Virus record (IMG/VR): IMGVR_UViG_3300037189_013673 | Location: 6,513-70,512 of that record | Direction: 5' to 3' (one strand) | DNA length: 64,000 bases | From: a virus | Shown: piece after piece, positions 8,727-53,490 of the stretch | Layout of the letters: every line of letters begins with the position of its first letter | Position numbering within the stretch: the first letter of the stretch is position 1 | Position numbers and translations under genes: made by a program | The notes under the pieces: model-generated | What the model saw: the letters and a program-made list of their open reading frames with translations, nothing else | What the model was told of the DNA's origin: nothing | Database searches by the model: none

Positions 8727-10268
8727 TTATATACCACCATCTACTATAATCCAATTATTTGGTGCGCCAGTTAATATGTTTTTACCAGCTTGTCCAGCTA
8801 TTGTGTATTTTATACTTCCAAAGTTTACGTTTGTAAGGTTTGGCTGAACAGGTAATAAACTCCAGCCATTGTATATAGCATTTAAGTTTGTCGTAGAGTA
8901 ATTTAAGTTTGTTTTATTTAACATAAAGTTTAAAAAACTTGAAACATTAGATATATTCCAACTTCCTATGTTTTGATTAAAAGCTGTTGCTGAATTAAAC
9001 ATTGATGTCATATCAATAACATTAATAACATTCCAAGAATTTAATGGTTGATTAAATATAGATGCTCCTCTAAACATAAATCCCATATTTGTAGCACTGC
9101 TAACATTCCATGAATTTAATGGTTGATTGAAAGCAGTGTTAAAATTAAAAACACTTCCAAAATCAGTTACGTTGCTAACATTCCATGAATTTAATGGTTG
9201 ATTAAATGAAGTAGCTGTTGCAAACATTCCAAAAATACTTAAAGCACTAATTAAATTCCAAGAATTTAATGGTTGATTAAAATTAGTAGCGTTAGAAAAC
9301 ATAGAGGCAAAAGTTTGAACATTACTTACATTCCAAGAATTAATATTGTAATTAAATGGTGTACTTTGAAACATACTATTCATATTAATAACTGAAGAAA
9401 CATTCCAGTTACTTAAATTATCATTAAAGTTACTATTTGAAAATAAATCATCCATAAAAGTAACATTACTTACATTCCATTGATTAATATTATTAATAGT
9501 AGTTAATGAATTACAACTGTTAAACATAGATGTTAATATAGTCGTTCCTGTTAAATTTAAAACACCTACAACAGAAGATAAGTTTAAATTTTGACAAAAA
9601 GCAAAATAATTACCAGTATTTCCAAGTTTTAAAGTTCCCCAGTTAGAAATTGAAAGTATTTTATTCCTATCTCCAGTAAAATTAAATACAAAACCTGTTA
9701 TTGTACCTGTTATAGTAATAGTATAAGTACCTGCTACTGCATAAGTATGAAGTGTCTGAGCTTGATTCCAAACTGTGATTGTGTTTTGAGTGCCATCTCC
9801 CCAGTTTACTACAAAGTTATAAGTTCCTGAAGAATCTAAAGGTAATTGTACTTGGTTAGCAGCGCTTGAACCTACTGTTGTATTACTAGTATTCCAAGTA
9901 GAAATGAATGCTGTTGAAACCACTTCTAAAGCTCCATATATATAATAACTACTAGAAACATAAATAGTATCGCCGCTATATTGAAATAAACCTTGATTTA
10001 AGCTATTTAAAGCGCTAACTACTGATTGAATATTATTACTACTCAAAGAAACAGAATAATAGACAGGTGTAGTGTTTGATGTATTAGAAATATAAATAGT
10101 AACTAAATAACTTCCGCTATAATTTTCAGTAGTTAAATTCCAACTATACATTCTATCGGAGTTACTTGCTGAATTTATATTTGGTATAGCTTTTAATATC
10201 TCAATAGATTGTGAAAAGCTTGTGTTATTTTTAATTCTTAAAACTATTTGTGTTTCTACTTTTCTCAT
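8727..10268 (-). CDS. PKD + DUF285/BspA-type repeat protein, putative receptor-binding spike
   Basis: VNWGDG...HTY..AGTYTITI (PKD); tandem 25-aa FNQPLNSWNVSNV..M..MF repeats. Confidence 0.85.
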   Translation of the reverse strand: MRKVETQIVLRIKNNTSFSQSIEILKAIPNINSASNSDRMYSWNLTTENYSGSYLVTIYISNTSNTTPVYYSVSLSSNNIQSVVSALNSLNQGLFQYSGDTIYVSSSYYIYGALEVVSTAFISTWNTSNTTVGSSAANQVQLPLDSSGTYNFVVNWGDGTQNTITVWNQAQTLHTYAVAGTYTITITGTITGFVFNFTGDRNKILSISNWGTLKLGNTGNYFAFCQNLNLSSVVGVLNLTGTTILTSMFNSCNSLTTINNINQWNVSNVTFMDDLFSNSNFNDNLSNWNVSSVINMNSMFQSTPFNYNINSWNVSNVQTFASMFSNATNFNQPLNSWNLISALSIFGMFATATSFNQPLNSWNVSNVTDFGSVFNFNTAFNQPLNSWNVSSATNMGFMFRGASIFNQPLNSWNVINVIDMTSMFNSATAFNQNIGSWNISNVSSFLNFMLNKTNLNYSTTNLNAIYNGWSLLPVQPNLTNVNFGSIKYTIAGQAGKNILTGAPNNWIIVDGGI

Positions 10269-10738
10269 AATTTTTTATTTTTTAAAAGTAAATAAACCGT
10301 GAATCCAATTATTGCTACACTAGTCCATCTTAAAACTTGAGGAGAAATATAACTTTTATTTTTAGCTAAATTTACAAAATGCTCACAATTAAAGTTTATA
10401 AAATCATATTTGTAATCTTTAAGTATTTTAACTAATTCATCAATGTCATTAACGTTTAGATTTGTTTTTTCTACACTTACAATATCTCTACCTTTAATCC
10501 ATTTATCTAATTTTTCTTTAGTTGTATTGCCACCTTTTGAATTAACTTTATCAGGGTGATTATGAATTATATAAATATCATCTTCATCTTTTTGTATAAT
10601 TCCATAATGATAAATAATTGGTAAAATATTAGCTTTAGTTTTTATTAAATCTCCAGTTTCTAATTTACTAATTATATAACTTCTATTATCAATTTTTAAT
10701 TTATTTAGTTTATTATTAAAGTTCCTTGTTGTAATCAT
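10265..10738 (-). CDS. LRAT / H-box-NC (permuted NlpC/P60) protein with C-terminal TM
   Basis: GDLI, HYGI, IIH, Y....NCEHFV motifs. Confidence 0.8.
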   Translation of the reverse strand: MITTRNFNNKLNKLKIDNRSYIISKLETGDLIKTKANILPIIYHYGIIQKDEDDIYIIHNHPDKVNSKGGNTTKEKLDKWIKGRDIVSVEKTNLNVNDIDELVKILKDYKYDFINFNCEHFVNLAKNKSYISPQVLRWTSVAIIGFTVYLLLKNKKL

Positions 10739-11165
10739 CTAAAACGTTAAAAAATTCATCTTGAAAAAAATGTGTTGGTGTTACAAAATCTTTATTAGCT
10801 ATCTGAGTTGTAAAAATAACCATCTGTATAACTTCGTTTGGTAAAATAGAAAAACCTAAACCAGTTCTACCATCTAGTACTACATTATCTTCTAAAGGTT
10901 CATAATATGATGCTGTTATAATTTGATAAGGGTCAATTAAAACGTTTTGAGTAAAAGCTTTAATATTACCATTAACATCATAATGATTATATTGATAAGG
11001 TTGAAATAATTGCTCTAATGAACTAGTATTTATATAAGTTTTATTTATTTTATATGAATATCCAGATTGAGAATTGACAATAGTATTGTACTTAGTGTCA
11101 TCTACACTTATTACAGATACTACTCCGGTAGAATAAATATTTATTGTCGGATTGTAAACTCCCAT
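10716..11165 (-). CDS. Divergent paralog of the 233-aa capsid-like proteins (putative minor capsid/vertex protein)
   Basis: Shares TY, Q, DxNGN, IDPYQ and [IL]DGxTxL in order with ORFs 29405/30130. Confidence 0.6.
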   Translation of the reverse strand: MGVYNPTINIYSTGVVSVISVDDTKYNTIVNSQSGYSYKINKTYINTSSLEQLFQPYQYNHYDVNGNIKAFTQNVLIDPYQIITASYYEPLEDNVVLDGRTGLGFSILPNEVIQMVIFTTQIANKDFVTPTHFFQDEFFNVLDDYNKEL

Positions 11166-16300: not shown

Positions 16301-18358
16301 TTAAGGCACAATAGTAAGTATGTTTAAATTACTCCAAACCGAACCTCTTGGTAAACCAGATGAACTTGTAGGTATATCCATAATAGATAAGTTATTTACA
16401 AATGTAGCAAATTCTCTGTTAGCAGTTATGGTAGTTCCAATAATATTGACATTAGAAAAAGAATTAGTATAATTTTGTTTACCTCCTAATATACTACTAT
16501 AATATGAATTATTACAATTTCTATAACCACCAACTATTATGCTATACAAACCACTATAAATTGTATTTTTATATCCTCCTCCTAAAAATGCTTTTCTACT
16601 TCCAGACATTAAATTATTATACCCTCCTCCTAAAAATGAATAATTACTACCATTACATATTCGGTTGTTTTGACCACTTCCAATAAAAGTATTTGTATTA
16701 TCGTTGACAATATGATTGTCATAACCTCCTACAATTACGTTGTGGATACGAATACCAATACCTTCAATTCTATTAGAACAACCTCCACCTATAAAATTAT
16801 TTTGTGAACAAGAACCACAAGAAGTACTCGTAATATAATTATCATTTCCACCTACAATTATATTATAAAAACTATTATATAACGTGCAAATTTTATTATT
16901 ATTTCCACCACCTATAAAAGAACAATTACCATTTATAAAATTAGTATATCCTCCAACAATTACATTTCCAATACCATAATTAATATTATCACTTCCCCCA
17001 CCAATAAAACTTCTACTACCAGTTTTCATTGTATTACCAGCACCTCCAACAATTACATTTGTACAACCACTATAATTTTGACACATTTTATTTAAACTTC
17101 CTCCACCTATAAATGAGTAAGTATTACCATTACCAATGATGCAATTACTTTCTCCACCAACTATTGTAGAAGATTGATTATATCCACAAATTGTATTAAA
17201 ACTACCTCCTACAATTATAGAACCAAAAGATTGTCCAAATTCTTGTATTTTGTTATTTCCACCACCACCTATAAAACCATAACCATTTGAAACAACATTA
17301 TTACTTCCACCACCTATAAAACCATAAAGACCAGAATTTATATTACATATACCACCAACAATTATACTGAAATTATTACTTGTAATATTGTTACAACCTC
17401 CAACAATTATATTGTAAGCGTTATTAATAAGATTACAACAACCACCTCCAATAAAACTAAAATTTCCATCACTTATTATATTGTAATTACCATTAACTAT
17501 ACTTACTCCAGTGCCATTTCTAATACAATTCCTATCACCATTACCTATAAATGCTAAATGAATTTCACCCCCAAGAATTGTAGTTATTTTATTTTGAACG
17601 CCACCAGATATTACACTCTCTGAAACATATCCACAAATTTTATTACTATCACCTCCACCTATTATACTATATCCTACATCGCCAGTAGTACAAATGTAAT
17701 TTGAAAGTCCCCCACCAATTACAGAATTTCTATCAAAAGATTTATTATTAATACCTCCAGAAATTAAACTACCATTTAAAGATGCACAATTATTTTTGCC
17801 ACCACCAACTATTGAATATGCACCAGATGCGATATTACCACCACCTCCTCCAACTGTTGAATAATCGTTAGAAGCCACATTATAATATCCTCCTCCAATT
17901 GTACTCGCAAATGAAGATGAAATATTTCCAGAGCCACCACCAATTACACTAAATGAATAAGTAGAATAATTAAATCTACCTCCAGAAACTACTGAATTAC
18001 AACCATACGCATGATTATTATACCCAGAACCTACAAAGCCATAAAGACCAGTACGATTTTGATGACCTCCACCAATAAATGAGTTATAACCAGAAATATT
18101 ACCTATTCCACCACCTATTGTAGAATAACTACCACAAGCATTATTACAAGCACCTAAAACTGGTTGTATTCCATTACCATTTGCATTAAATTTAAAAGGA
18201 CTTGAACCTCCTCCACCACCTATATATGAAGATAATGGAGTAGTTTGACCTCTTACATCTTTAAGAATAAGTATTCCATCTGAATTTTTAAAAATAGCTA
18301 AGCTATTACCTTCTGGAGTAAATATATTTTGAGCACTTGATACTGTTAAATTTCCCAT
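16301..18358 (-). CDS. Gly/Asn-rich beta-solenoid fibre/spike protein
   Basis: Dozens of S(F/I)IGGGxxN repeats; C-terminal IPTSSSGLP.G.VW motif. Confidence 0.8.
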   Translation of the reverse strand: MGNLTVSSAQNIFTPEGNSLAIFKNSDGILILKDVRGQTTPLSSYIGGGGGSSPFKFNANGNGIQPVLGACNNACGSYSTIGGGIGNISGYNSFIGGGHQNRTGLYGFVGSGYNNHAYGCNSVVSGGRFNYSTYSFSVIGGGSGNISSSFASTIGGGYYNVASNDYSTVGGGGGNIASGAYSIVGGGKNNCASLNGSLISGGINNKSFDRNSVIGGGLSNYICTTGDVGYSIIGGGDSNKICGYVSESVISGGVQNKITTILGGEIHLAFIGNGDRNCIRNGTGVSIVNGNYNIISDGNFSFIGGGCCNLINNAYNIIVGGCNNITSNNFSIIVGGICNINSGLYGFIGGGSNNVVSNGYGFIGGGGNNKIQEFGQSFGSIIVGGSFNTICGYNQSSTIVGGESNCIIGNGNTYSFIGGGSLNKMCQNYSGCTNVIVGGAGNTMKTGSRSFIGGGSDNINYGIGNVIVGGYTNFINGNCSFIGGGNNNKICTLYNSFYNIIVGGNDNYITSTSCGSCSQNNFIGGGCSNRIEGIGIRIHNVIVGGYDNHIVNDNTNTFIGSGQNNRICNGSNYSFLGGGYNNLMSGSRKAFLGGGYKNTIYSGLYSIIVGGYRNCNNSYYSSILGGKQNYTNSFSNVNIIGTTITANREFATFVNNLSIMDIPTSSSGLPRGSVWSNLNILTIVP

Positions 18359-18362
18359 TTTT

Positions 18363-18977
18363 TTATGAAATTTTATTCATTGTTACTATTAAAGAAGGAG
18401 TCGCAGGATGTGGTACTGTTAAATTAGCTGCTTCATAAATTAATTGAACTTGTAAATCAGTTACTGAATATACTAATTCTACATATTCTCCTGCATTTAA
18501 AACTATAAAAAGATTCCAAGAAGCAATAAGTTTTGATTGATTAACACTACCTGATATTGTTACCTTACCATTTGTATTACTAACATCTACGCCTTGTTTT
18601 CTTAACCAAATATCAATTATATCTGTACCTGAACCAACTACTCTATCTATTTGCGCTGAAAATTGTAAATTATAAAGACCAGCTGTGTTTACTGTTATTT
18701 GAGAATTAGAAACTATAGATACTCCATTTGAAATATCTGTATTATTTAACGTCATTACTTTTGGAGTATTTATAACAGTAGCAGCTTGATTAGATGTGCT
18801 ATAAAAACTTCCGTATTTAAAATTAGTACTAAAATTAATATAATCAGATAATGGAGCAAATTGAGCTCTAGCATCTTTTACTTTCATTATATCATCTCTG
18901 CTATCAATGAATAGTGCTAAACCATTTCCTTCTGGAGTATATACCAGTTCAGGTGTTGATACAGTTAAATTTGGCAT
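18363..18977 (-). CDS. Spike-like protein with C1q/BclA-like head
   Basis: YGSFYST..Q, ITV..AGLYNLQFSAQ, LNAGEYVEL; N-terminus shared with ORF 16301. Confidence 0.75.
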   Translation of the reverse strand: MPNLTVSTPELVYTPEGNGLALFIDSRDDIMKVKDARAQFAPLSDYINFSTNFKYGSFYSTSNQAATVINTPKVMTLNNTDISNGVSIVSNSQITVNTAGLYNLQFSAQIDRVVGSGTDIIDIWLRKQGVDVSNTNGKVTISGSVNQSKLIASWNLFIVLNAGEYVELVYSVTDLQVQLIYEAANLTVPHPATPSLIVTMNKIS

Positions 18978-20278: not shown

Positions 20279-20279
20279 T

Positions 20280-20477
20280 TTATTTTTTCTTATATGAAAT
20301 TCCTACTTTTAAAAGTACTAATAATAAAACAGCACTAGCAACTAATATAGTATATCTTAAAATAGTTTTATTACCAGTTTCTTTTTCTTTATCAATAAGT
20401 TTCATTTGTGTCTCTTCTTTGTTCAACAAATCTTGTATTCTGCTCATTTCTGAACTATCATATATTAATCCAGCCAT
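20280..20477 (-). CDS. Small C-terminal TM protein
   Basis: YTILVASAVLLLVLLK. Confidence 0.7.
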   Translation of the reverse strand: MAGLIYDSSEMSRIQDLLNKEETQMKLIDKEKETGNKTILRYTILVASAVLLLVLLKVGISYKKK

Positions 20478-20480
20478 CTT

Positions 20481-42391: not shown

Positions 42392-42397
42392 TTTATT

Positions 42398-43885: not shown

Positions 43886-43904
43886 AATTATAATTTTTTA
43901 GTTT

Positions 43905-44558
43905 TTAAAATGCATCATCTATATTATCTAAAAATGAAAATGCATCTTCTTCTTTTTTAGGTTCAGGTTTTACTATTGTTTTTCTTTCTACTTTTGGTTT
44001 TTCTATTATTATTTCTTCATTAATTATTTCTGGTTCATTATTTGATAATAAATTTACTTCTCTATTTTCTGAAGTACTAAATTCAGAATCTCCGCTTTTA
44101 TAATAAAAAGTAGTTTTTGATTTACTATCGAATACATAAATCAAATCAGAAAGTCCCATATCTTTATCTTCTTGAGATAATGGAAAAGTAAATCTATCGC
44201 CTCTTCTAAGATTTGATAACCTTGTAATTCTTTGTTTTCCATTAATAACAACAGTATTTGGTTCAACTACATTTATATCTTCAATTACTGGTTTTAAAAT
44301 TTCAACTTCTTTTTGTTTTTTAGTTCTTGTTTTAACCGCTTTGTTTGAGTCTAAATCATTTATATCAATTCCTATTAAAGATTCTTTTTCTAATTCATTT
44401 AGTATGCTTGCAATAAGAATCTGTTGTTCTTTTGGTATCTCGATAACTGGCAAAGCATCAAACGAATTTTCTAAATCTTTAATCATAAAAGGTCTCTCGT
44501 TTTTATCTGAATATGCTATTTTTATAAGCATATTTGATATTTCTTTTAAACTGCTCAT
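43905..44558 (-). CDS. Hypothetical protein
   Basis: 217-aa ORF. Confidence 0.75.
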   Translation of the reverse strand: MSSLKEISNMLIKIAYSDKNERPFMIKDLENSFDALPVIEIPKEQQILIASILNELEKESLIGIDINDLDSNKAVKTRTKKQKEVEILKPVIEDINVVEPNTVVINGKQRITRLSNLRRGDRFTFPLSQEDKDMGLSDLIYVFDSKSKTTFYYKSGDSEFSTSENREVNLLSNNEPEIINEEIIIEKPKVERKTIVKPEPKKEEDAFSFLDNIDDAF

Positions 44559-44884
44559 ACTAATATTATTTTACCATTAGCGTCTAAATCTATTTCTATT
44601 AAATTAGATTCAAATTCCAATCTTTGTTTTAAATTATCAAACTGCTCTACGCAATTCATTTTTGACCCATTTGGCTTTATACATTTAATATTAACTTCTG
44701 AGCTTATTCCATTATCTGGCTCTAAAGCATAAGAAGTATATTTTACATAAATATCGTTAGGAGTTAATAAATTATATAATAATTTTAAATCCTTTTTTTG
44801 TCTTTTATCATAAAAAGCATAACCACTTATGTAATCATGCATAGTCTGAATTTGTTCTTTAGTAATTTTTACATTATTTTTCAT
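44555..44884 (-). CDS. Hypothetical protein
   Basis: 109-aa ORF coupled to neighbours. Confidence 0.75.
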   Translation of the reverse strand: MKNNVKITKEQIQTMHDYISGYAFYDKRQKKDLKLLYNLLTPNDIYVKYTSYALEPDNGISSEVNIKCIKPNGSKMNCVEQFDNLKQRLEFESNLIEIDLDANGKIILV

Positions 44885-44885
44885 A

Positions 44886-46568
44886 TTATATACTATCTAA
44901 TGAATCATTTAATAAATTAACTTTTTGTTGAAAACTTTCTTCTTTTTTATTTTTTTGCTCCTTTGTATCTGAGTATTTACCTGAACCTACTAATTTATAT
45001 TTTTCAACTAGCATAGAAATTACATAAGTTCTAATTAAATCTTTAATTTTTTTAGTAGTATTAGGTATTTCAAATAATTTTTTAAAAGTAACATCATCAA
45101 TAAATCTTTTATAAATGCTTTTTATAAATTCTTGCATTGGTAGCATTTCAATAGCTAAAAAATCCATATAATAATAAAAAGTAAAAAATATTTCATGAAT
45201 ATTTTTAAAAATATCAGCATAGTCCATATCGCTATCTGCTTTACTTCTACTAGCAGTAGGTAAAGCAAATTGAAAATTATTATTAATTACTTTAGTATTA
45301 ATAAAGTCTTTTTCTTTATTTACTTCAGACCAGTTTTTATAACGTTGCATTATTTCATTCATATAATCTCTATGTTCATAATTTACATCAGTAAATGAAC
45401 TACTAGTATCACCTGTAGCATTTGCTTGAATACCTTCATTTTCTACAATAATTTTATGAAAAGCAAAAAACGAACTTGCCGTGTTTGATTTCGACAATAA
45501 AGCAAATATTCTATTAAAAGATAATTTTGTAGACTCTTCATAATCTTTAACAGGTATTGACACTGTAATTTGAGTATTTTTATCAGTACCTAGACGTAAA
45601 GCACTTAATCTTGATTGAATACCAAATTCTTCTAACGCAGCACAGATTAAATACGGAGGCCATAACATTATAGCTCTTGTAGAATCATTTACTGAAAGAA
45701 AATTAATAGGCATAAAAATATCTACATTTTTTACAGAATCATCTTTTTTATTGTAAATTAAATATGATTTTTTGTTACTAGAAGCATATTTTAATCTAAT
45801 ATCACCTTTGCCATTAAATACTTTATTTTGATTGTTTAAATAATAAGTTAATATTATGCCGTCTTCATTTGGTTTTAATAAACATTCATTTGAAAAATAA
45901 TTAAAAACTTTAGTTGCTCCTCTTTGTCTTTTTTGACAATCATAATCTTTTCCATTAATAGAATATTTAAAAAAAGTAAAATCTCCAATAATTCTTTTAT
46001 TGACATTATCAGGATTTATAACTCCAGGTTCTAATTTTACAAATTCAAATGGGTTTTTTAAAACTCCTTTTTTAATATCTTCTTTTAAAGCTTCTGAATA
46101 AAATTCAATAGGTCTATATAAACCTAAACTAGCTAATCCAAAATCAAAAACTCCTCTTTCATCTTCTGTAATTATTATTTTATCATTAGTGAATAAACCA
46201 CCTAAGTTAATAAGCGTTTTAATATTTTCTACTAAAACTTTACTTATTTCTTTTATTTTAGTAAAAGTAGAATCGTCTTGATTAATAAAATCTACATAAC
46301 TTTTAAAATTTCTAAATTCAACACCACTAACATTAGATAAAGCTGAAGATTCAACACTTGATTTAGTAGATTTTTTTCTGGTTATTTCTATTAAATCAAA
46401 AGCATCTTCTAAATTTTTATATTGTTTAAACACAAAACCATTTGTACTCATAGAATCATAGTTTCTCGTAGTGTTTTTTATAGTTGATAATGACCATTTT
46501 TGGACAAAATCAATAAATGGTAATTGTCCAGACTGTTTAATAACTTCAAATAAGTTGCTTAAATCCAT
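44886..46568 (-). CDS. Hypothetical protein, probable MoxR partner (VWA-like by position)
   Basis: Directly downstream of the AAA ATPase; no canonical DxSxS MIDAS motif seen. Confidence 0.5.
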   Translation of the reverse strand: MDLSNLFEVIKQSGQLPFIDFVQKWSLSTIKNTTRNYDSMSTNGFVFKQYKNLEDAFDLIEITRKKSTKSSVESSALSNVSGVEFRNFKSYVDFINQDDSTFTKIKEISKVLVENIKTLINLGGLFTNDKIIITEDERGVFDFGLASLGLYRPIEFYSEALKEDIKKGVLKNPFEFVKLEPGVINPDNVNKRIIGDFTFFKYSINGKDYDCQKRQRGATKVFNYFSNECLLKPNEDGIILTYYLNNQNKVFNGKGDIRLKYASSNKKSYLIYNKKDDSVKNVDIFMPINFLSVNDSTRAIMLWPPYLICAALEEFGIQSRLSALRLGTDKNTQITVSIPVKDYEESTKLSFNRIFALLSKSNTASSFFAFHKIIVENEGIQANATGDTSSSFTDVNYEHRDYMNEIMQRYKNWSEVNKEKDFINTKVINNNFQFALPTASRSKADSDMDYADIFKNIHEIFFTFYYYMDFLAIEMLPMQEFIKSIYKRFIDDVTFKKLFEIPNTTKKIKDLIRTYVISMLVEKYKLVGSGKYSDTKEQKNKKEESFQQKVNLLNDSLDSI

Positions 46569-46570
46569 GT

Positions 46571-47914
46571 TTAAAACATTTTATTGATTTCGTCTAATTC
46601 TAAATCAGTATTTATTTTATCTAAAGGTAATTTATTTTTTTCTTTAACTATTTGTAACCATGATTTATAATCTGTTTTTGTTTTTAAAATATCTGCTTGT
46701 TCATTAGTAAATAATGTAAAAAATTCATCTAAAGAGTTTTCTACTGTTTTAACTGTTGAGCTTTGAACTGCATTTAAAACTGAATCAATAGGAGCTGGAG
46801 TAAATGAAATATCAGCAACAGTTTCAATAGTTTTACTATTTCCACCTGCTTGTTTAATACTTCTAAAGACATTATAAGTTTTTTGAACAGATAACATTAA
46901 ACGAACAGAAACGAATGCTTTAGCTGTAAAACCTTCTTCTTGAATTGTTTTTCTTAGTTTACTTAAATATATAAATATAAAAGCCCATTTTTTATTAAGA
47001 ATAGTTTCCCACTCAAATTTCTCATCTACAAATACTTTATATGTAGAGCCAGCAAATCTATCTTGTAAAGATAAATCCTGCTTAAAGTTAGCTTCATATT
47101 CAGCGTCTTTAGTATTTAGTAAACTATTACCTGTTGCCATGATAAAACAATCACCTCTTTCTATAATATCTCCTTTAGCATTTTGAATAGTAGCAGGTTC
47201 TCCATTGCTATTGTATTCACCAACTTTAGCTAAAGCGGCATTTAAAATACCTGCAGTATTAGGGTCTATTTTAGGTAACTCATCTAATAATAAAATACAA
47301 CCTTTTCCCATAGGACTTCCATCTGGGTTTAAATTTCCAAATGCTCTAACTACTTTTCCTTCTTGATAACCATCAATTGTTTGACCGCCTATTAATTCTA
47401 AAGCAGAAGTAAATTGATTACAGTTTACGGTGATAATATTCCAGCCTAATAAATCTTTTAAATCTCCAGCTAAAAATGTTTTTCCTGTTCCTGCACCACC
47501 ATATAAATAAACATTATTTCTTGCTAAAATATCACTTAATATTTTTTGAACAAGAGGTCTTTGAACAGAAGGCGTAAGAGTTGTTGTAACTACTTTAGTT
47601 AAAGTTCCTTGTTTAATTGTTAAAGTTACTTTAGTAGGTTGATTATTTAATAAACTTTTAATGGTATCATCTAAATCATCAAATTTAATTTTATCTGTTT
47701 CAATTTCTTCTCTAACTATTCTTTTAACTTCATCTTCATCTAAATTAGATGCTTTTTGATTTCCAGATAATAAAGCAGATAGTTGAATCATTTTTTGAGC
47801 AACTACGTCGCCTTCAAATTCATCTTCCATTTTCTTTTTAGCAAGTTGTTGTAACATTGGATTATCTGTCTCAGATGCAATATCCATTAATTCTTTTTTA
47901 GTTATATTTTCCAT
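46571..47914 (-). CDS. MoxR/CbbQ/CobS-like AAA+ ATPase
   Basis: YLYGGAGTGKT, ILLLDE, ATGN, QD.SLQDRF. Confidence 0.85.
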   Translation of the reverse strand: MENITKKELMDIASETDNPMLQQLAKKKMEDEFEGDVVAQKMIQLSALLSGNQKASNLDEDEVKRIVREEIETDKIKFDDLDDTIKSLLNNQPTKVTLTIKQGTLTKVVTTTLTPSVQRPLVQKILSDILARNNVYLYGGAGTGKTFLAGDLKDLLGWNIITVNCNQFTSALELIGGQTIDGYQEGKVVRAFGNLNPDGSPMGKGCILLLDELPKIDPNTAGILNAALAKVGEYNSNGEPATIQNAKGDIIERGDCFIMATGNSLLNTKDAEYEANFKQDLSLQDRFAGSTYKVFVDEKFEWETILNKKWAFIFIYLSKLRKTIQEEGFTAKAFVSVRLMLSVQKTYNVFRSIKQAGGNSKTIETVADISFTPAPIDSVLNAVQSSTVKTVENSLDEFFTLFTNEQADILKTKTDYKSWLQIVKEKNKLPLDKINTDLELDEINKMF

Positions 47915-48585
47915 TATTTAAAAATTTCGTTTAATAAATCATTTATTTTTTGTTCGTTATCTGTTCCGAATAGATTTCTATTACCTATTGCGGCTTTTGC
48001 TAATTGTTTATTTTTGAATACACTTTTTATACTATCTTTAGGCGTTGATAAAGCTTCTTCTATGACATTAAATCCCATATCATTTTGTATCTGCTGAGAA
48101 GATTTTCCTTTTGAAAATTCATCTTTTATTTTTTTTAATAATTCATCTAAATCAAGTCCTTCATCATCAGCTTTATTACCAAAATCTCCTTTTTCTCCAT
48201 CTTTACCTTCTCCATCTTCTCCATCTTTACCTTCACCATCTTTACCATTTTGGTCTTTACCATCTTGGTCTTTACCATCTTGGTCTTTACCATCTTTGTC
48301 TTTACCATCTTTGTCTTTACCATCTTGGTCTTTACCATCTTGGTCTTTACCGTCTTGGTCTTTATTATCTTGGTCTTTATTATCCTTATCTTGTTCTTCT
48401 TCAAAAGGATTTTCTACATTTTCAGGTACTTCTTGAGGCTCTTGAGGTTCTTCTGGCTCGTCTTTCGGCGGCGGCGGATTTTCACCTTGAGGCGGAGTTG
48501 GAGGTGGTACTCTTAAGATTGTAATATTATCTTCTTCAGTGTCATACTCTATAAATGAACTTGGTAGATTTTTTTTATTTTCCAT
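47914..48585 (-). CDS. Low-complexity Pro/acidic protein with (DQDGK)n repeat
   Basis: 223-aa ORF. Confidence 0.75.
   Translation of the reverse strand: MENKKNLPSSFIEYDTEEDNITILRVPPPTPPQGENPPPPKDEPEEPQEPQEVPENVENPFEEEQDKDNKDQDNKDQDGKDQDGKDQDGKDKDGKDKDGKDQDGKDQDGKDQNGKDGEGKDGEDGEGKDGEKGDFGNKADDEGLDLDELLKKIKDEFSKGKSSQQIQNDMGFNVIEEALSTPKDSIKSVFKNKQLAKAAIGNRNLFGTDNEQKINDLLNEIFK
48190..48392. repeat. 15-bp tandem repeat (tggtctttaccatct and variants) encoding DQDGK/DKDGK
   Basis: Directly visible. Confidence 0.9.
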
Positions 48586-48596
48586 TTTTATATTTT

Positions 48597-49106
48597 TTAT
48601 TCTTGAGTACTTAATGAAATATCTGCGTTTTGTTTATTTTTCAAAACACGTAAAGCTTCTTCTTTTGTTAATTTTTTGACAATAACTTTAGTACCTGCTA
48701 CTTCAGTAACAATACCATAATCATCTTTAACTCTAATAATATCGCCTACAACAGGTGGTATTTTTACCTTTTTTGGAGGTGGTTGATTAGGTTGTGGATT
48801 ATTAACTTGAGGAGGCGTTTCTTTAAGTTCTTTATAAATCATATCTTCAAAAAATAAAATAGCATCTTCAAAGTTTTCTTTGATTGTTTTATTTTTTGTA
48901 AAAAATTCTTCATAAATAGTATAAACTCCATTTACTTCTTTAAATACTTTGTAAGGATTAGTGTTTACTTGACCTACGTAAGCATTTGGGTTGAACTTTA
49001 CCTCTATGTTCATACCTGTAGTTGTATTAGTTAACCTATAAATTACTTCATCAGGGCTAATTACTTCTGTGCTTTCTGTTAATTTACCTTCTTTATATAC
49101 GAACAT
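48597..49106 (-). CDS. Hypothetical protein with Pro-rich linker and possible KOW/SH3-like end
   Basis: VGDIIRV...YGIVTEV. Confidence 0.7.
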   Translation of the reverse strand: MFVYKEGKLTESTEVISPDEVIYRLTNTTTGMNIEVKFNPNAYVGQVNTNPYKVFKEVNGVYTIYEEFFTKNKTIKENFEDAILFFEDMIYKELKETPPQVNNPQPNQPPPKKVKIPPVVGDIIRVKDDYGIVTEVAGTKVIVKKLTKEEALRVLKNKQNADISLSTQE

Positions 49107-52100
49107 ATCCTCCTTTATTAAATCTTATATCATTGAAAAAATTAAAATAGAAACTTCTTCTAACTGTAGCACTTTTTATTTGCGTAGGACTAAAAGTTAA
49201 ATATTCTATATCTTTTATAAATTTACTTCTATCACTTATGACTTGACCATTTGTATCAAATACAGGTATATCTCCATATTGAATTAAAGCATCGTAACCA
49301 AAATCTTTTATAGTTTCTAATAATGACACATCATTACGGACATAAACCCATATAGGATGTTTAGCTTTCATATCGTTTTGAATTAAACTTAAAACATTAT
49401 TACTTGGTTGTATTTTAATACCATAAGCTATAGTCATATAGTCAATAAGGTCTTTATAAGTTACTTCTAAGTCCAAAGGTAATAAATCTATTGGATTTTT
49501 TATATTTAAAAACACTTTATAAATAAATGGTTCATAATCTGCTGATGGTTTTGGCATATTTGGAGCATCGCCAGCATAAAACTTAGCATAATCTTCATTA
49601 TTAGCAAAATAAGATGCAGGAAATGCTGTAGGTGGCTCAAATGAACCATAAGGTCTCACGACTCCTTGACCCATATTAGAAAATTGACCAAAATTAGGTA
49701 TATATTTTCTAACTCCATGGTAAAATATTTTAGGTTCTTTAGTTTCTTCATCAATCATCTTAGAACAATCAAGATAATTATTAGTTTCATAAGCTTTTTC
49801 CCAGTCACCAAACCATTTTTTAAATTGAGGTGTTCTGACATTAAGATAAGCATTCATAGGTAATTTACTTTTCTCTCCATTAGGAGTTGGTAATTCACAA
49901 GCTGGTTCTAATGGTGCAACTGGGCTTTGAGTACTCTGAGACCAATAATACTTTAATAAACCTTGAGGCGTAAAAGTTTCAAATTTAAGAGATGATTTTT
50001 CATTTGGTTTTATAAATGTTTCATAAGTTATTTTTTTATTTAACCTATTGATTTCTTTTAAAATAGTTGCTTTTTCAACAGCAAATTTACTTTCTTGAAA
50101 AGAAGGCAATAATTTTTTAAAGTTTTCTAAATCTTTTCTGTCTTTTATTAAATTATCATCATCATATATATTAGTACTATCTTTAAATACTAATTTATCT
50201 AAATCAGCTGTAAATTCATTTTTAGGTTGATTTGATTTTTTTTCTGGTATTTTAGTTGATGCAGTTGACTGAGAAGTGGTTCCAAACAAATCAGCTTCTG
50301 TTATTTCTCTACCAGTTCTATTATCCCAACCAACATATTTATTTTTTGTAAACCATATATTATCAATATTATCTTTATCTCTTATTTTTCCTTTTATACC
50401 TATATTATCTTTCCAACCAAGTTCTTCTGCTTTTTCAACTACTCTTTTAGCTAATTGTATATCACCATTAATATTTATATAAGTACTAGTTAAATCTGTA
50501 ATTAAATTATTAGAAATGGCTGAACTAGAACCATACATATCTTTATATGGTTTAAAGTTTCCTGAATTAATTTCTGCCCAAAAATCATCACCTTCTTTAG
50601 TTCTGCTCCAACTAAAAGCTAAATCAATCTCATCACTATCTCTACTAAAATTACGTTCTTTTTTTCTTAATAAAGCTAATTCTTTAATTGGTTCAGGCAA
50701 ATCAGATATTTTACCGCTAAAATTAGGTATTGAATCTGGTATTAAATCAGAAGTAGTTGGTTGCGTTTTTATTACAGGTTGATTTATATTTATAAATGAA
50801 GCTTTATTTTTCTTCATATCTTCAACTAATAACATCATATCAACTTCTGTTATTTCTACAGCAGGGCTATCATTAAAAGTATTTCTTGAAGTTTTACGTA
50901 ATATTGAATTATATTGAAACGTTATCCAATCTGTAACAGCGTAACCATCTGTATTTATTATTTGAGAACCATTAGTATCTGTTAAACCTAATTCAAAAGC
51001 TAATTCTTGTACTTTTATAAATAAATCTTTTTTTCCACCTATCCAAATTTTAGTGTTATCTAAACTATCTACAATGCTTCCAGAAACAGTTGGTTGCGTT
51101 TTAATTGAAGTAGTTCCAAAAACATCTGCTTCAAAAATTTCTTTTTCTGGTTCGTTTTCAAAATATGATATAGCATTAAAACCATAAATTCTTTTACCTA
51201 TATTTTTAATAGAAACTGTAAAAGTTAATCCATTTGCATTAACATAATTATTAGTACCATCTTCATTTTTAAAACCTTGAGCAAAAGCTAAATCTTGTAT
51301 TCTTCTTGATAAATCAGGATTGTTTTCTACCCATATTTTAGTATTATCTAAATTAAATGGTTGATTAGAAACTACTGGTTTTGAAACTGTTTTGCTTAAA
51401 TTAGGAGTGCTTGTTCCAAATATATCTTCAATGAATATTTCTTTAAGATTTGGTCTACTATCAAAAGTAGTTCTTAATTCTCCGTAATTTATAGATTTAT
51501 CTTTATAAAAATATAATGCTGTGGCTTTATCAACAGATGTTGTTTTAACACCAGATGATGGGTATTTCCAACCTAATTCAAATGCTCTTTCTTGAACTGC
51601 TTTAGATAATTTAGGGTCATCTCCAATCCAAATTTTAGTATCACTTAAATCTGTTAATATGTTATTAGAAGCGCTTTTAATAGTTGCTTTAGGAGCATTA
51701 CCAAATATTTCAGCTTCTGTTATTTCTCTTTTAGGACTATTATCAAAAGTAGAAGTAGAATTACCGTAAGAAATACTTTTCTTTGTAAAATATAAATAAT
51801 TAAAAGAACTATAATCTAAGTTTTTACCATGATTATTTTGCCATTCCCAACCATCATCAAAAGCTTTTTGTTGTACTCTTATTGATAAATCTTTATCCAT
51901 AAGAACTTTTAATTTAGTATTTGTAAAATCAAAAGCTTTAGCAAAACTACTAGTTACATTTACACTAGTATTAGGATTAACTACTACTGTTCTATTTCCA
52001 CTAAAAAAATCAGACCAATCATAATTTATTGCTTGATAATGATTTTCTTTATCTATTTGTTTATATAAATCAGTTGGTTTACCAGTAATTGGATTAAAAT

Positions 52101-53490
52101 AAGTATTTGTATTTCTAGCATCTTTAAATTTTAATTTAGTAACACTACCTTTGTTATTTATTCTAAAATAAAGCCAACAAGGTTCTTTTTTATCAATAAA
52201 TATTTCTCTAACATCTCTTAAAAAATCTTTATAGTTTGTATATACTTTTCTTTCTAAACTAGTTAAATCATAAGAAGTATCAGTGATAATTATACTTTCA
52301 ACTTTAGGCAAACCTGGATTACCACCTAAATCAAAATGTTTAGTTACATTTATAGAATCGCCTTCTAAATTAGCATCATAAGGAGTTAAACCACCTTTAG
52401 CATAAATACCTGTATCTCCACCAACTCTTCCATCTGCTTCAACATCTAACATATCATTATAGTTGTTTAAATCTCTTGCAGGTGTGTTTCCATTTTTGGC
52501 ATCTCTAACTAAACTTTCTTTATGAACTTTACCACCATGACTCATTTTTAATTCATGAGAATCAATTTTAGCGGCTTTTCCACCCATTACTGCAGAGTAA
52601 ACTCTAGCCATTGCCCATTGTTCTTTAGAAGTAACATTTTCTCTAACACTTTCATGGTTAGTTTTAAAAGCTCCAATTCCTTTATTATATATTTCTTGTA
52701 AACCTTTTATAGAAATACCTGTATCTTTAGAAATATCTTCTAAATCATGTGATTTATCAACTGGATATTTATATTTTTTATTATATTTATCTTTATATGA
52801 TACATAACCACCATCGTGAAACTTTTCACTTTCATCAGTATAAAAAGTAGGGCTTTCAACTAAATGGTCTTTTACAATATTAAAATGGTCTAAATAAGTT
52901 CCTGCATGAATGCTTTCGTCTTTCATGCCTAATTCAACTTGTTTATCTAATTCTTCTAATGTAACATTATGCATTTTAGCAATATCTTCTAATGACATTC
53001 CTTTTGATAAATGACCACTTAGTTCAAATTTATTATCATCTTCATCATATTCACAGCCGCATTTATTTATTTCTTCAGCAATTTCTTTATCAGACATCAT
53101 TTTGCCACCGTAATTGTAAGTTCCACCATTACAAAGCATTTTACTTGAAACTTCTGCTCCATCTTCTGCAAAAGCAACTCCACCTGCATCATGATTAATT
53201 TTAGATAAAATTTCTCTATTAGTCATCATTTTACCTTGAAATTGTCTTTTTGATTGGTCTGCTAAAGCCGGTGCGGTAATAATAACTTCTCCTGTTTGTA
53301 CTTCTATTGGTTGTCCTGAAGTTTTATCAACTCCTTTTATTCCACCTTCTTTATGTGTTTTACCTACAAACCAACCACCTACTTTGCCATCATCATATAT
53401 AATTGTTTGACCATTTCTTTTACCTACTAATACTCCACCTTGTGGTGAATTTTTAGCTTGTTTTTCTGTTAAGTCTATTTTTTTTGCCAT
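49093..53490 (-). CDS. 1465-aa polyvalent protein: N-terminal small domains, five internal repeats, C-terminal ADP-ribosyltransferase-like (ART-PolyVal) domain
   Basis: VRTPQFKKWFGDWE...SK..DE...EP...YHG, YFA....A..YA, FLNIKNP, GYDA, EY..FSPTQIKSA. Confidence 0.8.
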   Translation of the reverse strand: MAKKIDLTEKQAKNSPQGGVLVGKRNGQTIIYDDGKVGGWFVGKTHKEGGIKGVDKTSGQPIEVQTGEVIITAPALADQSKRQFQGKMMTNREILSKINHDAGGVAFAEDGAEVSSKMLCNGGTYNYGGKMMSDKEIAEEINKCGCEYDEDDNKFELSGHLSKGMSLEDIAKMHNVTLEELDKQVELGMKDESIHAGTYLDHFNIVKDHLVESPTFYTDESEKFHDGGYVSYKDKYNKKYKYPVDKSHDLEDISKDTGISIKGLQEIYNKGIGAFKTNHESVRENVTSKEQWAMARVYSAVMGGKAAKIDSHELKMSHGGKVHKESLVRDAKNGNTPARDLNNYNDMLDVEADGRVGGDTGIYAKGGLTPYDANLEGDSINVTKHFDLGGNPGLPKVESIIITDTSYDLTSLERKVYTNYKDFLRDVREIFIDKKEPCWLYFRINNKGSVTKLKFKDARNTNTYFNPITGKPTDLYKQIDKENHYQAINYDWSDFFSGNRTVVVNPNTSVNVTSSFAKAFDFTNTKLKVLMDKDLSIRVQQKAFDDGWEWQNNHGKNLDYSSFNYLYFTKKSISYGNSTSTFDNSPKREITEAEIFGNAPKATIKSASNNILTDLSDTKIWIGDDPKLSKAVQERAFELGWKYPSSGVKTTSVDKATALYFYKDKSINYGELRTTFDSRPNLKEIFIEDIFGTSTPNLSKTVSKPVVSNQPFNLDNTKIWVENNPDLSRRIQDLAFAQGFKNEDGTNNYVNANGLTFTVSIKNIGKRIYGFNAISYFENEPEKEIFEADVFGTTSIKTQPTVSGSIVDSLDNTKIWIGGKKDLFIKVQELAFELGLTDTNGSQIINTDGYAVTDWITFQYNSILRKTSRNTFNDSPAVEITEVDMMLLVEDMKKNKASFININQPVIKTQPTTSDLIPDSIPNFSGKISDLPEPIKELALLRKKERNFSRDSDEIDLAFSWSRTKEGDDFWAEINSGNFKPYKDMYGSSSAISNNLITDLTSTYININGDIQLAKRVVEKAEELGWKDNIGIKGKIRDKDNIDNIWFTKNKYVGWDNRTGREITEADLFGTTSQSTASTKIPEKKSNQPKNEFTADLDKLVFKDSTNIYDDDNLIKDRKDLENFKKLLPSFQESKFAVEKATILKEINRLNKKITYETFIKPNEKSSLKFETFTPQGLLKYYWSQSTQSPVAPLEPACELPTPNGEKSKLPMNAYLNVRTPQFKKWFGDWEKAYETNNYLDCSKMIDEETKEPKIFYHGVRKYIPNFGQFSNMGQGVVRPYGSFEPPTAFPASYFANNEDYAKFYAGDAPNMPKPSADYEPFIYKVFLNIKNPIDLLPLDLEVTYKDLIDYMTIAYGIKIQPSNNVLSLIQNDMKAKHPIWVYVRNDVSLLETIKDFGYDALIQYGDIPVFDTNGQVISDRSKFIKDIEYLTFSPTQIKSATVRRSFYFNFFNDIRFNKGGYVRI

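What the first reader, a model, noticed from the sequence alone, without database searches (positions are those of the whole stretch)
8727..53490. Unusually large tailless, membrane-containing phage of Bacteroidota
Seen: about 45 kb of co-oriented late genes with no recognisable terminase, portal, HK97 capsid, tape measure or baseplate. Present instead are a 273-aa FtsK/HerA-type ATPase, duplicated beta-rich capsid candidates, more than 30 small single-TM proteins, spikes and membrane-anchored peptidoglycan enzymes. Known: an A32/P9-type ATPase with jelly-roll capsid and many small TM proteins typifies internal-membrane viruses (PRD1, PM2, P23-77, SH1), whose genomes are about 10-31 kb. Inference: a genome over 64 kb with this virion module plus Caudoviricetes-like accessory genes may be an undescribed lineage.
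Basis: partly seen in the sequence, partly recalled or inferred. Interest (0 to 1): 0.92.

Follow-up and report, generated by a model that had tools for sequence, protein, structure and literature searches.

The report
Large tailless-type freshwater phage genome
This is the nearly complete 70-kb genome of an uncultured freshwater bacterial virus that has none of the hallmark genes of tailed phages but carries the DNA-packaging motor, a jelly-roll coat-type protein and the many small membrane proteins typical of tailless, membrane-lined viruses, at several times their usual genome size.

Summary
The window is 64 kb of a 70,512-bp virus contig (CheckV 98%). No terminase, portal, HK97 capsid, tail tube, tape measure or baseplate family was found in any ORF, in four ~72-102-kb relatives or in the extra large ORFs of a syntenic 132-kb relative.

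What is present:
- A 273-aa P-loop ATPase. Its profile aligns with the P23-77 packaging ATPase (hhalign 85%) and STIV2 B204 (49%), but not with lambda terminase.
- A conserved unit of a 42-aa membrane peptide plus a 233-aa protein, tandemly duplicated here, which AlphaFold2 folds as a single jelly roll.
- A short jelly-roll paralog beside spike genes.
- About 28 membrane proteins among 62 late ORFs.
- A membrane-anchored GH108 enzyme.

This scan found the same lineage before on other DNA. Three literature searches found no description. Most likely reading: a very large tailless-type, membrane-containing phage (confidence 0.6).

The parts
32555..33376 (-). 273-aa P-loop ATPase, candidate genome-packaging motor (Walker A GRKGCGKT, LLLIED, NRH...Q)
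   Evidence: Sequence. 864 homologs; 9 of the 120 listed carry precomputed PF01935/DUF87. hhalign of profile A3: P23-77 packaging ATPase prob 85%, E 5.9e-6, 150 columns; STIV2 B204 49%, 131 columns. Controls: lambda gpA 0.06% and own AAA_5 3.7%.
32319..32555 (-). 78-aa single-TM protein; its start overlaps the stop codon of the ATPase gene by one base; candidate packaging-vertex membrane protein
   Evidence: ORF; TM segment 23-41. The role is inferred by analogy with PRD1 P20/P22 (gene order).
33494..34540 (-). 348-aa acidic protein with a basic C-terminus, directly upstream of the ATPase; no family
   Evidence: 56% identical homolog at the same position in the 132-kb relative.
30866..30994 (-). 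42-aa single-TM peptide directly upstream of the jelly-roll gene
   Evidence: Translation. A hydrophobic ORF of 25-69 aa lies within 330 nt upstream of the jelly-roll gene in 57 of 59 related loci.
30130..30831 (-). 233-aa single jelly-roll protein, copy A; best major-capsid-protein candidate
   Evidence: 1424 homologs. 488 representative clusters at 50% identity. AF2 pLDDT 87.1, pTM 0.78: N-terminal helix, disordered linker, beta-sandwich at 51-217. Lies downstream of the ATPase in 58 of 58 loci.
29405..30106 (-). 233-aa jelly-roll protein, copy B (tandem paralog, 83% identical to A)
10716..11165 (-). 149-aa divergent jelly-roll paralog beside spike genes; vertex/penton candidate
   Evidence: hhalign against profile A2: prob 95.9%, E 5.6e-9. 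A short paralog is present in 5 of 5 genomes and in G006:C9.
8727..10268 (-). 513-aa DUF285 (leucine-rich-repeat type) protein; spike or receptor-binding candidate
   Evidence: PF03382, E 7.6e-71, is in the all-ORF Pfam list, which does not name the matching ORF; I assign it to this ORF. PHROG hits of unknown function on this ORF.
16301..18977 (-). Two fibre-like proteins (685 aa Gly-rich, 204 aa) sharing a 47-aa N-terminal module
   Evidence: BLASTP 55% identity over residues 1-47, E 8e-14. No family for the 685-aa protein.
19712..29312 (-). Run of small, mostly single-TM late proteins, plus a 261-aa HExxH protein at 25721-26506
   Evidence: TM scan. Nearly no family hits. The HEFSH motif is read from the sequence.
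35450..36094 (-). PAP2-type lipid phosphatase
   Evidence: PF01569, E 8.2e-12.
35014..35460 (-). RuvC-like Holliday-junction resolvase
   Evidence: phrog_1770, E 1.3e-17. No homolog found in the 132-kb relative.
37048..39185 (-). Cell-wall enzymes: glucosaminidase (37048-37602), CarboxypepD_reg protein with TM (37938-38351), GH108 with C-terminal TM (38499-39185)
31865..32326 (-). Peptidase_M15_4 cell-wall peptidase
   Evidence: PF13539, E 7.3e-19.
40250..53490 (-). Large charged proteins, probably virion cargo: 713 aa, 495 aa, AAA_5 ATPase of 447 aa, CobT/DUF7192-like 560 aa, and a 1465-aa polyvalent protein (DUF5824 + ART-PolyVal)
   Evidence: ESM Atlas lead for the 560-aa protein. The cargo role is inferred.

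Best explanation
The window is most of the genome of an uncultured freshwater phage. It belongs to an abundant aquatic lineage with genomes of about 60-132 kb. Its virion is probably built like tailless, internal-membrane viruses and not like tailed phages.

Shown:
- Tailed-phage hallmark genes are absent.
- A small ATPase is most similar to the packaging ATPases of P23-77 and STIV2.
- A strictly conserved order: ATPase, then a small membrane peptide, then a jelly-roll protein.
- A second, short jelly-roll paralog lies next to spike genes.
- About 28 membrane proteins among 62 late ORFs.
- A membrane-anchored cell-wall hydrolase.

Inferred mechanism:
- The late - strand genes insert many small proteins into the host membrane.
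- The 233-aa jelly-roll protein uses its N-terminal amphipathic helix and linker to assemble a shell around a membrane vesicle.
- The short paralog forms vertices that carry the DUF285 spike and two fibres sharing one N-terminal adaptor.
- The ATPase, docked through small membrane proteins at one vertex, pumps DNA into the preformed particle without a terminase nuclease.
- The polyvalent and other large charged proteins are co-packaged cargo.
- The membrane-anchored GH108 enzyme opens the wall at entry, and the soluble M15 peptidase and glucosaminidase act in lysis.
For: 1. No Caudoviricetes hallmarks.
- Pfam and PHROG scans of all 118 ORFs and individual scans found none.
- Terminase_6N gave 0 of 5 relatives. 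TerL_ATPase, Phage_portal and Phage_capsid each gave 0 of 5 genomes including this one. The positive controls rang in these searches.
- 10 extra large ORFs of the 132-kb relative gave none.
- The contig is 98% complete and the relatives 100% complete by CheckV.

2. ATPase.
- hhalign: 85% to the P23-77 packaging ATPase and 49% to B204, including the NRH...Q region.
- Controls: 0.06% to lambda terminase and 3.7% to an unrelated AAA protein.
- DUF87 or Zot labels occur on some homolog clusters.

3. Synteny.
- The jelly-roll gene lies 273-3083 bp downstream of the ATPase on the same strand in 58 of 58 loci with enough sequence.
- A small TM ORF lies upstream of it in 57 of 59 loci.
- PRD1, PM2, STIV2 and P23-77 show the same order.

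5. A full-length plus a short paralog are present in 5 of 5 genomes.

6. TM-protein share: 28% genome-wide and 28 of 62 in the late block. Comparison values are 30-33% for PRD1, PM2 and STIV2, and 18% for a tailed Flavobacterium phage.
Against: - There is no profile similarity to P23-77 VP16 or VP17 (0.1% and 0.9%) or to anything in SSIP-1.
- The ATPase itself passes no Pfam threshold. A PDB sequence search gave only ClpB P-loop hits. PRD1 P9 aligned over the Walker A motif only. I did not model the ATPase structure.
- P23-77, a genuine membrane virus, scored only 7% in my TM scan, and the tailed control scored 18%, so that measure is crude.
- The contig ends cut two divergent ORFs, so a small piece is missing.
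- No particle, lipid or proteome data exist.
Confidence: 0.6

Rival explanations
1. It is a real virus of this lineage, but the virion is of another, undescribed architecture, for example enveloped, pleomorphic or non-icosahedral. In this reading the 233-aa jelly-roll protein is an abundant accessory, vertex or fibre-head protein and not the shell-forming protein.
For: Jelly-roll matches to C1q/collagen heads, CBMs, cement and tail proteins are as good as those to capsid proteins. The best viral neighbours are vertex or spike domains, not major capsid proteins. No similarity to VP16 or VP17. The fused two-domain paralog does not superpose on double-jelly-roll capsid proteins.
Against: The protein is the most conserved partner of the packaging ATPase (58 of 58 loci) and sits in the slot where PRD1, PM2, STIV2 and P23-77 encode their capsid proteins. 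No other beta-rich, conserved, unannotated protein of capsid size was seen among the ORFs. A packaging ATPase of this type implies a preformed shell.
Confidence: 0.2
2. It is a tailed phage (Caudoviricetes) whose terminase, portal, HK97 capsid and tail proteins have diverged beyond HMM detection.
For: IMG/VR-derived labels and ESM Atlas clusters list 'Uroviricota'. Accessory genes are typical of tailed phages: RecT, exonuclease, thymidylate-synthase family, MazG, a crAss001_48 domain and a polyvalent protein. There is a weak phrog_2666 'terminase large subunit' hit on the ATPase (E 4e-4).
Against: TerL is the best-conserved tailed-phage gene, yet it is absent from this contig, five related virus records (G001-G005) and the extra large ORFs of the 132-kb relative. 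The only unannotated ORFs of 400 aa or more are low-complexity charged proteins (713 and 495 aa) and a CobT-like lead (560 aa). The ATPase has 273 aa, no nuclease domain, and 0.06% hhalign probability to lambda gpA.
Confidence: 0.1
3. It is not a virus but a plasmid-like or other mobile element that viral classifiers mislabel.
For: DUF932, a polyvalent ART protein, cell-wall hydrolases and many small membrane proteins also occur on conjugative elements. Relatives are binned into MAGs of several phyla.
Against: No conjugation, relaxase or partition family appears in the lists shown. There are fibre and spike proteins with a shared adaptor, three cell-wall enzymes, a strict early/late strand organisation and 75 related IMG/VR virus contigs of up to 102 kb. 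The 132-kb relative shares gene order with this genome from 4.6 to 123.6 kb of its contig, and I saw no bacterial flank.
Confidence: 0.05

Closest known systems
Thermus phage P23-77 and relatives (Helvetiavirae, Matshushitaviridae / former Sphaerolipoviridae)
   Same: Best profile match of the ATPase: hhalign 85%, E 5.9e-6, 150 columns. Same gene order: ATPase, small ORFs, single-jelly-roll capsid genes. Tailless with an internal membrane, as stated in the passages read of review PMC6356626.
   Different: 17 kb against 70.5 kb (up to 132 kb in relatives). P23-77 has two distinct capsid proteins, VP16 and VP17. Here one 233-aa protein is conserved, and its duplication is seen in only 2 of 75 related loci. 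No profile similarity to VP16 or VP17.
STIV2 (B204 packaging NTPase), PRD1 (P9) and PM2 (P9): Tectiliviricetes with double-jelly-roll capsid proteins
   Same: The ATPase aligns with B204 over 131 columns, including the NRH...Q region, at 49%. The order ATPase, small membrane peptide, capsid gene is shared. The nearest viral structural neighbours of the jelly roll are the vertex domains PR772 P5/P31-type and PM2 P1.
   Different: Genomes of 10-17 kb. Their capsid protein is a double jelly roll in one chain; here it is a single jelly roll. PRD1 P9 aligned over the Walker A motif only. No protein-primed DNA polymerase: PF03175 gave 0 of 5 genomes.
[quoted passage not shown]
   Same: A cultured, unclassified, membrane-containing phage with PRD1-type architecture (passages of PMC6356626). 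Its genome is a 43,788-bp circle and its recorded host is Salisaeta. That the host belongs to the Bacteroidota-related phyla is recalled, not checked. It is the largest cultured analogue that I know of (recalled).
   Different: No detectable similarity. Profiles A2 and A3 and tblastn with all 120 ORFs of this genome gave nothing below E 0.3. This genome is 1.6 times larger, and its relatives up to 3 times larger.
Tailed phages of Bacteroidota (e.g. Flavobacterium phage 11b, crAss-like phages)
   Same: Early and accessory genes: RecT, exonuclease, thymidylate-synthase family, MazG, a crAss001_48 domain and a polyvalent protein. Low G+C. TAnnTTTG boxes are enriched between genes.
   Different: Phage 11b encodes annotated terminase, portal, prohead protease and capsid genes. 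None is detectable here.

Membership tests
Genome-packaging ATPases of membrane-containing viruses (FtsK-HerA superfamily; A32 / PRD1 P9 / STIV2 B204 / P23-77 ORF13 type) | N-terminal Walker A, Walker B and a downstream conserved Arg/Gln region; about 200-270 aa; no nuclease domain | tested here: met
   GRKGCGKT at residues 13-20, LLLIED and NRH...HFQS are read and are invariant in alignment A3. The protein has 273 aa. The names given to these motifs are from recall.
Genome-packaging ATPases of membrane-containing viruses (FtsK-HerA superfamily; A32 / PRD1 P9 / STIV2 B204 / P23-77 ORF13 type) | Detectable profile similarity to known members, above unrelated P-loop proteins | tested here: met
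   P23-77 85%. B204 49%. PM2 P9 48%, but only 37 columns. PRD1 P9 6.6%. Controls: lambda gpA 0.06% and own AAA_5 3.7%. Single sequences were used as targets, so the probabilities are modest.
Genome-packaging ATPases of membrane-containing viruses (FtsK-HerA superfamily; A32 / PRD1 P9 / STIV2 B204 / P23-77 ORF13 type) | Curated family hit (Pfam) or a solved-structure match of the protein itself | tested here: inconclusive
   Only AAA_22 at E 1.4e-3, below the cut-off. PDB profile search: ClpB P-loop only. 9 of 120 listed homologs carry precomputed PF01935. ESM Atlas clusters carry Zot or DUF87 on 13-20% of members. I made no structure model of the ATPase.
Genome-packaging ATPases of membrane-containing viruses (FtsK-HerA superfamily; A32 / PRD1 P9 / STIV2 B204 / P23-77 ORF13 type) | Encoded next to the capsid gene | tested here: met
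   58 of 58 loci.
Helvetiavirae (two vertical single-jelly-roll capsid proteins) | Single-jelly-roll capsid protein fold | tested here: inconclusive
   The fold is a jelly-roll-type beta-sandwich. The orientation in a shell cannot be told, and the matches are generic.
Helvetiavirae (two vertical single-jelly-roll capsid proteins) | Two different major capsid proteins encoded side by side | tested here: not met
   One full-length copy in 4 of 5 genomes. Only 2 of 75 loci show a second hit within 10 kb. The two copies here are 83% identical.
Helvetiavirae (two vertical single-jelly-roll capsid proteins) | Sequence or profile similarity to VP16/VP17-type capsid proteins | tested here: not met
   hhalign 0.1% and 0.9%.
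Bamfordvirae prokaryotic members (PRD1, PM2, STIV: double-jelly-roll capsid protein) | Capsid protein with two jelly rolls in one chain in the double-jelly-roll arrangement | tested here: inconclusive
   This genome has single-domain proteins only. A fused two-domain paralog exists in relatives: 41 clusters of 381-410 aa. In record G004 it is an extra gene beside the normal one. Its model (pLDDT 78.8) matched no double-jelly-roll capsid protein over both domains.
Tectiviridae | Linear genome with inverted terminal repeats and a protein-primed family-B DNA polymerase | tested here: not met
   PF03175 gave 0 of 5 genomes. One relative has a 123-bp inverted terminal repeat. That repeat corresponds to an internal divergent promoter region in this genome.
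Caudoviricetes | Large terminase, portal and HK97-fold capsid protein | tested here: not met
   This holds at the HMM level only; folds of the unannotated proteins were not all modelled.

The most novel reading that the evidence does not exclude
The lineage builds a large, membrane-lined icosahedral shell from one vertical single-jelly-roll protein, plus a short paralog at the vertices. That is the long-postulated state before the two-capsid-protein viruses (P23-77 type) and the fused double-jelly-roll viruses (PRD1 type). The next steps would then be visible within the same lineage: a tandem duplication in this genome and a fused two-domain paralog in the 100-kb relatives. It would be a new high-rank group of Varidnaviria-like bacterial viruses, abundant in fresh and sea water, with genomes up to 132 kb.
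Probability: 0.2. Interest if true: 0.95.

Novelty: new variant of a known kind. Interest (0 to 1): 0.8.

Why it matters
The cultured tailless, membrane-containing viruses of bacteria and archaea checked here have 10-44 kb genomes. This lineage has the same packaging and capsid gene logic at 60-132 kb. It is very common in aquatic metagenomes: 1424 clusters of the jelly-roll protein at 90% identity, 488 representative clusters at 50% identity, and 75 IMG/VR loci. Automatic pipelines nevertheless label it as a tailed phage.

If the reading holds:
- Surveys that count tailed against non-tailed phages by sequence misassign a common group.
- The size limit assumed for this virion type in prokaryotes is wrong.
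- The origin of the double-jelly-roll capsid becomes testable in one family.

Tried and rejected
Searches in cultured phages. blastn of 29000-34600 and tblastn of the jelly-roll protein and the ATPase against 50,697 phage records found only a 75-nt endolysin match, or nothing. Records near this genome may have been left out of that collection.

Structure and sequence searches of the jelly-roll protein.
- The PDB sequence search with profile A2 gave nothing meaningful.
- Foldseek/PDB, VIA-wide and BFVD searches of the model gave only generic beta-sandwich rows.
- P23-77 VP16/VP17, other sphaerolipovirus capsid proteins and PRD1 P3 were not among the 50 rows shown. This is inconclusive, not an exclusion.

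Fused two-domain relative (P0247). I modelled it to test for a double-jelly-roll arrangement. No double-jelly-roll capsid protein matched both domains, and the Foldseek TM-scores were 0.19 or lower. The gene also turned out to be an extra paralog, not a replacement. I dropped the idea that it is a ready-made double-jelly-roll capsid protein.

560-aa ORF as a hidden portal or capsid protein. Rejected as a lead: the ESM Atlas points to DUF7192/CobT-like proteins next to the AAA_5 ATPase. The scores are about 0.9 and the structure TM is below 0.5, so this is weak.

'Tail fiber' PHROGs. Both map to the 160-aa ORF at 12217-12699. From its sequence it looks cupin-like to me; no tool tested that.

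Split terminase (ATPase plus the RuvC-like resolvase at 35014-35460). The resolvase has no homolog in the 132-kb relative, so it is not a core part.

Inverted terminal repeat of relative G001 (123 bp).
- It contains a promoter-like box and the start codons of two inward-pointing genes.
- It matches an internal divergent intergenic region of this genome.
- I read it as a palindrome at which an assembly of a circular or permuted genome broke.
- A true linear genome is not excluded.

Host clues.
- RecT tblastn was uninformative, and there are no tRNA genes.
- The genome-contig scan gave 10 MAG contigs of mixed phyla. Two are Bacteroidota, including a 132-kb contig in a Sediminibacterium bin.
- Binning is weak evidence.

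Sequencing runs and contig ends.
- No RNA holder was listed.
- Laying contigs of three runs on 60000-64000 did not close the contig end. The last ORF lies in a stretch with many joints and depth spikes. Relatives of that ORF occur in 314 IMG/VR stretches.

Other points.
- The simple terminator scan found no - strand terminator after the jelly-roll genes.
- SSIP-1 showed no similarity.
- Complex prediction was not used, because a trimer or dimer pass would not separate a capsid from a fibre-head reading.
- Supplementary files of papers were closed and not consulted.
- Aalto et al. 2012 on SSIP-1 was not read. I saw only its citation and the review's passages.

Full report
WHAT THE WINDOW IS. 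The window is bases 6513-70512 of a single 70,512-bp virus contig. G+C is 23-31%, and CheckV rates the contig 98% complete. Genes at 1-8615 run on the + strand. They are early and replication genes: RecT, an RNase_T exonuclease, a thymidylate-synthase family protein, MazG, DUF932 and Phg_2220_C. Everything from 8727 to the window end runs on the - strand. The contig has no terminal repeat. Both of its ends cut divergent ORFs, so a small piece is missing. The last ORF belongs to a family found in 314 IMG/VR stretches and sits in a stretch with many contig joints and depth spikes. That probably explains why the assembly broke there.

CHECK OF THE OBSERVATION.
- I called 120 ORFs and scanned 118 of them against Pfam and PHROGs at E <= 1e-5. 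Pfam matched 31 families and PHROGs 67; only the first 25 of each list were shown.
- I scanned the 20 largest late proteins one by one against PHROGs, and the first 10 of them also against Pfam.
- I scanned 42 small late ORFs at 1e-3, with all 18 PHROG and 6 Pfam families shown.
- No terminase, portal, capsid, tail-tube, tape-measure or baseplate family appeared.
- The weak exceptions were phrog_2666 'terminase large subunit' on the ATPase (E 4e-4), phrog_773 'major head protein' on copy B of the 233-aa protein (E 4e-3), and Phage_scaffold (E 9e-4).
- Two PHROGs named as tail fibres map to a 160-aa ORF at 12217-12699.
- Six-frame searches were also negative. Terminase_6N gave 0 of 5 relatives. 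TerL_ATPase, Phage_portal and Phage_capsid each gave 0 of 5 genomes including this one. The control genomes did ring.
My crude hydrophobicity scan finds 28 membrane proteins among 62 ORFs in 8727-40166.

THE LINEAGE.
- The 233-aa protein has 1424 homologs at E <= 1e-3 among 2039 candidates, and 488 representative clusters at 50% identity.
- The ATPase has 864 homologs among 1688 candidates. All source names are 'hypothetical protein' or blank, apart from two automatic 'GTPase SAR1 family protein' labels.
- IMG/VR holds 75 related loci on contigs of up to 102 kb. Four such records of 72-102 kb and a fifth of 70 kb are rated 100% complete.
- A 132,486-bp contig binned in a Sediminibacterium MAG shares gene order with this genome from 4.6 to 123.6 kb. 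69 of my 120 ORFs have tblastn hits on it.
- Ten of its large ORFs without a homolog here gave an HNH endonuclease, a DNA methyltransferase and unknowns, with no head or tail genes.
- Genome size in the lineage therefore ranges from about 60 to 132 kb.
- Runs that hold this DNA or near relatives are labelled riverine, lake and freshwater metagenomes. Two non-source runs, one of them from another study, carried contigs 90-99% identical on the laid stretch.
- Some homolog clusters include Tara Oceans genes.

THE ATPASE. The 273-aa protein has a Walker A motif at residues 13-20, LLLIED, and an invariant NRH...HFQS region. On its own it passes no Pfam cut-off, and its profile finds only ClpB P-loops in the PDB. 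Results of profile-against-sequence hhalign:

| Target | Probability | Aligned columns |
|---|---|---|
| P23-77 packaging ATPase | 85% (E 5.9e-6) | 150 |
| STIV2 B204 | 49% | 131, including the NRH...Q region |
| PM2 P9 | 48% | 37 |
| PRD1 P9 | 6.6% | 19 (Walker A only) |
| Lambda terminase gpA (control) | 0.06% | 27 |
| This genome's own AAA_5 ATPase (control) | 3.7% | 14 |

Some homolog clusters carry DUF87 or Zot labels. I did not model its structure. Earlier follow-ups of this scan on relatives named B204 as the closest structure; that is a lead, not my evidence.

THE JELLY-ROLL PROTEINS.
- With a 108-sequence alignment, AlphaFold2 gives pLDDT 87.1 and pTM 0.78. The model has an N-terminal helix at 2-17, a disordered linker, and a beta-sandwich at 51-217.
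- Foldseek on the PDB has no hit at E <= 1e-3. The weak rows are picornavirus and comovirus coat proteins and C1q.
- BFVD adds collagen/C1q heads and minor tail proteins at TM 0.31 or lower.
- The fold is therefore a jelly roll, and it does not by itself say 'capsid'.

Context supports a capsid role more strongly:
- In 58 of 58 related loci with at least 2.6 kb downstream of the ATPase, the jelly-roll gene follows on the same strand at 273-3083 bp. In 31 of them the distance is under 600 bp.
- In 57 of 59 loci a hydrophobic ORF of 25-69 aa lies just upstream of it. Here that ORF is at 30866-30994.
- PRD1 (P9, gpi, P20, P3), PM2 (P9, P7, P2), STIV2 (B204, A345) and P23-77 (ORF13-17) have the same order.
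- A short paralog lies beside the DUF285 and fibre genes (149 aa here; hhalign 95.9%). It is present in 5 of 5 genomes, as expected for a vertex protein.
- The two 233-aa copies here are 83% identical, and a second copy is rare in relatives (2 of 75 loci). The duplication is local, not a two-capsid-protein design.

MEMBRANE AND ENTRY/EXIT GENES.
- The membrane-protein share is 28% of all ORFs and 45% in the late block. Comparison values are 30-33% for PRD1, PM2 and STIV2, 7% for P23-77, and 18% for the tailed Flavobacterium phage 11b. The measure is crude.
- The genome also encodes a PAP2 lipid phosphatase, a GH108 enzyme with a C-terminal anchor, a CarboxypepD_reg protein with an anchor, an M15 peptidase and a glucosaminidase.
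- Two fibre-like proteins share a 47-aa N-terminus.
- The 40-53 kb stretch encodes large charged proteins: a polyvalent protein with DUF5824 and ART-PolyVal, and a pair formed by an AAA_5 ATPase and a CobT-like lead. I read these as probable virion cargo.

HOST. The support for Bacteroidota is weak.
- TAnnTTTG boxes are 2.6-fold enriched between genes: 19 of 130 boxes lie in 5.7% of the sequence. They sit upstream of 17 genes, including the jelly-roll unit.
- There are a CarboxypepD_reg domain and a crAss001_48 domain.
- 2 of 10 MAG contigs that carry the ATPase are Bacteroidota bins; the rest come from mixed phyla.

COMPARISON AND NOVELTY.
- The closest functional models are P23-77-type and PRD1/PM2/STIV-type viruses. 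Membership fails on capsid-protein similarity, on the two-capsid-protein or double-jelly-roll criterion, and on the protein-primed polymerase.
It shows no similarity to this genome.
- Three full-text searches gave no paper describing such a lineage. I saw only listings and abstracts for these, plus passages of PMC6356626.
- This scan had already flagged relatives on other genomes with the same reading.
- I rate it a new variant of a known kind. Confidence that the virion is tailless and membrane-lined is 0.6.

Noticed in passing
L077 1-123 and L078 5878-6000 (record G001); L001 2694-2806 in this genome: A 72.5-kb relative ends in an exact 123-bp inverted repeat. The repeat holds a TATATTTG-type box and the ATG of the first inward-pointing gene at each end. 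The matching sequence in this genome is one internal divergent intergenic region. It is either a palindrome at which an assembly broke or a true linear genome end.
   Followed up: partly
L184 10001-11191 (record G004); proteins P0247 and P0419-P0458: A subfamily of 381-410-aa proteins is a tandem fusion of two jelly-roll domains. It lies upstream of the polyvalent-protein gene in 100-110-kb relatives, in addition to the normal 233-aa gene. G004 carries two further paralogs.
   Followed up: partly
L172-L178 (G006:C9, 132,486 bp): A contig binned in a Sediminibacterium MAG is a relative almost twice as large and in the same gene order, with G+C about 32%. It has extra genes, including a DNA methyltransferase and an HNH endonuclease.
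   Followed up: partly
window 12217-15882: A sulfation-type cassette lies behind the fibre genes: sulfotransferase, APS kinase, a cytidylyltransferase-like protein, a 291-aa protein with no family, and a 160-aa ORF that PHROGs label 'tail fiber'. All are 45-80% identical in the 132-kb relative.
   Followed up: no
window 40250-43885: The 713-aa and 495-aa proteins repeat a short NGGFM..VY.RGG-like motif several times and share a basic 'AMxLAKxIRK..ESWxDALxRA' block. No family was found.
   Followed up: no
window 63365-64000: The last ORF has relatives in 314 IMG/VR stretches, on contigs from 3 to 319 kb among the 79 loci kept. It shows depth spikes and many contig joints in three metagenome runs. 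It looks like a mosaic exchange hot spot, and the contig ends inside it.
   Followed up: partly
window 35450-36094: A PAP2-type lipid phosphatase lies about 2 kb upstream of the packaging ATPase gene and is 57% identical in the 132-kb relative. It could be a lipid-remodelling function for a membrane-containing particle.
   Followed up: no
window 46571-46568 region (44886-47914): An AAA_5 (MoxR/CobS-like) ATPase is followed by a 560-aa protein that the ESM Atlas places near DUF7192/CobT-like proteins. This pair is known from other phages.
   Followed up: partly
window 25721-26506: A 261-aa protein with an HEFSH motif and no family hit is 68% identical in the 132-kb relative. It is among the best-conserved late genes and could be a metalloprotease.
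   Followed up: no
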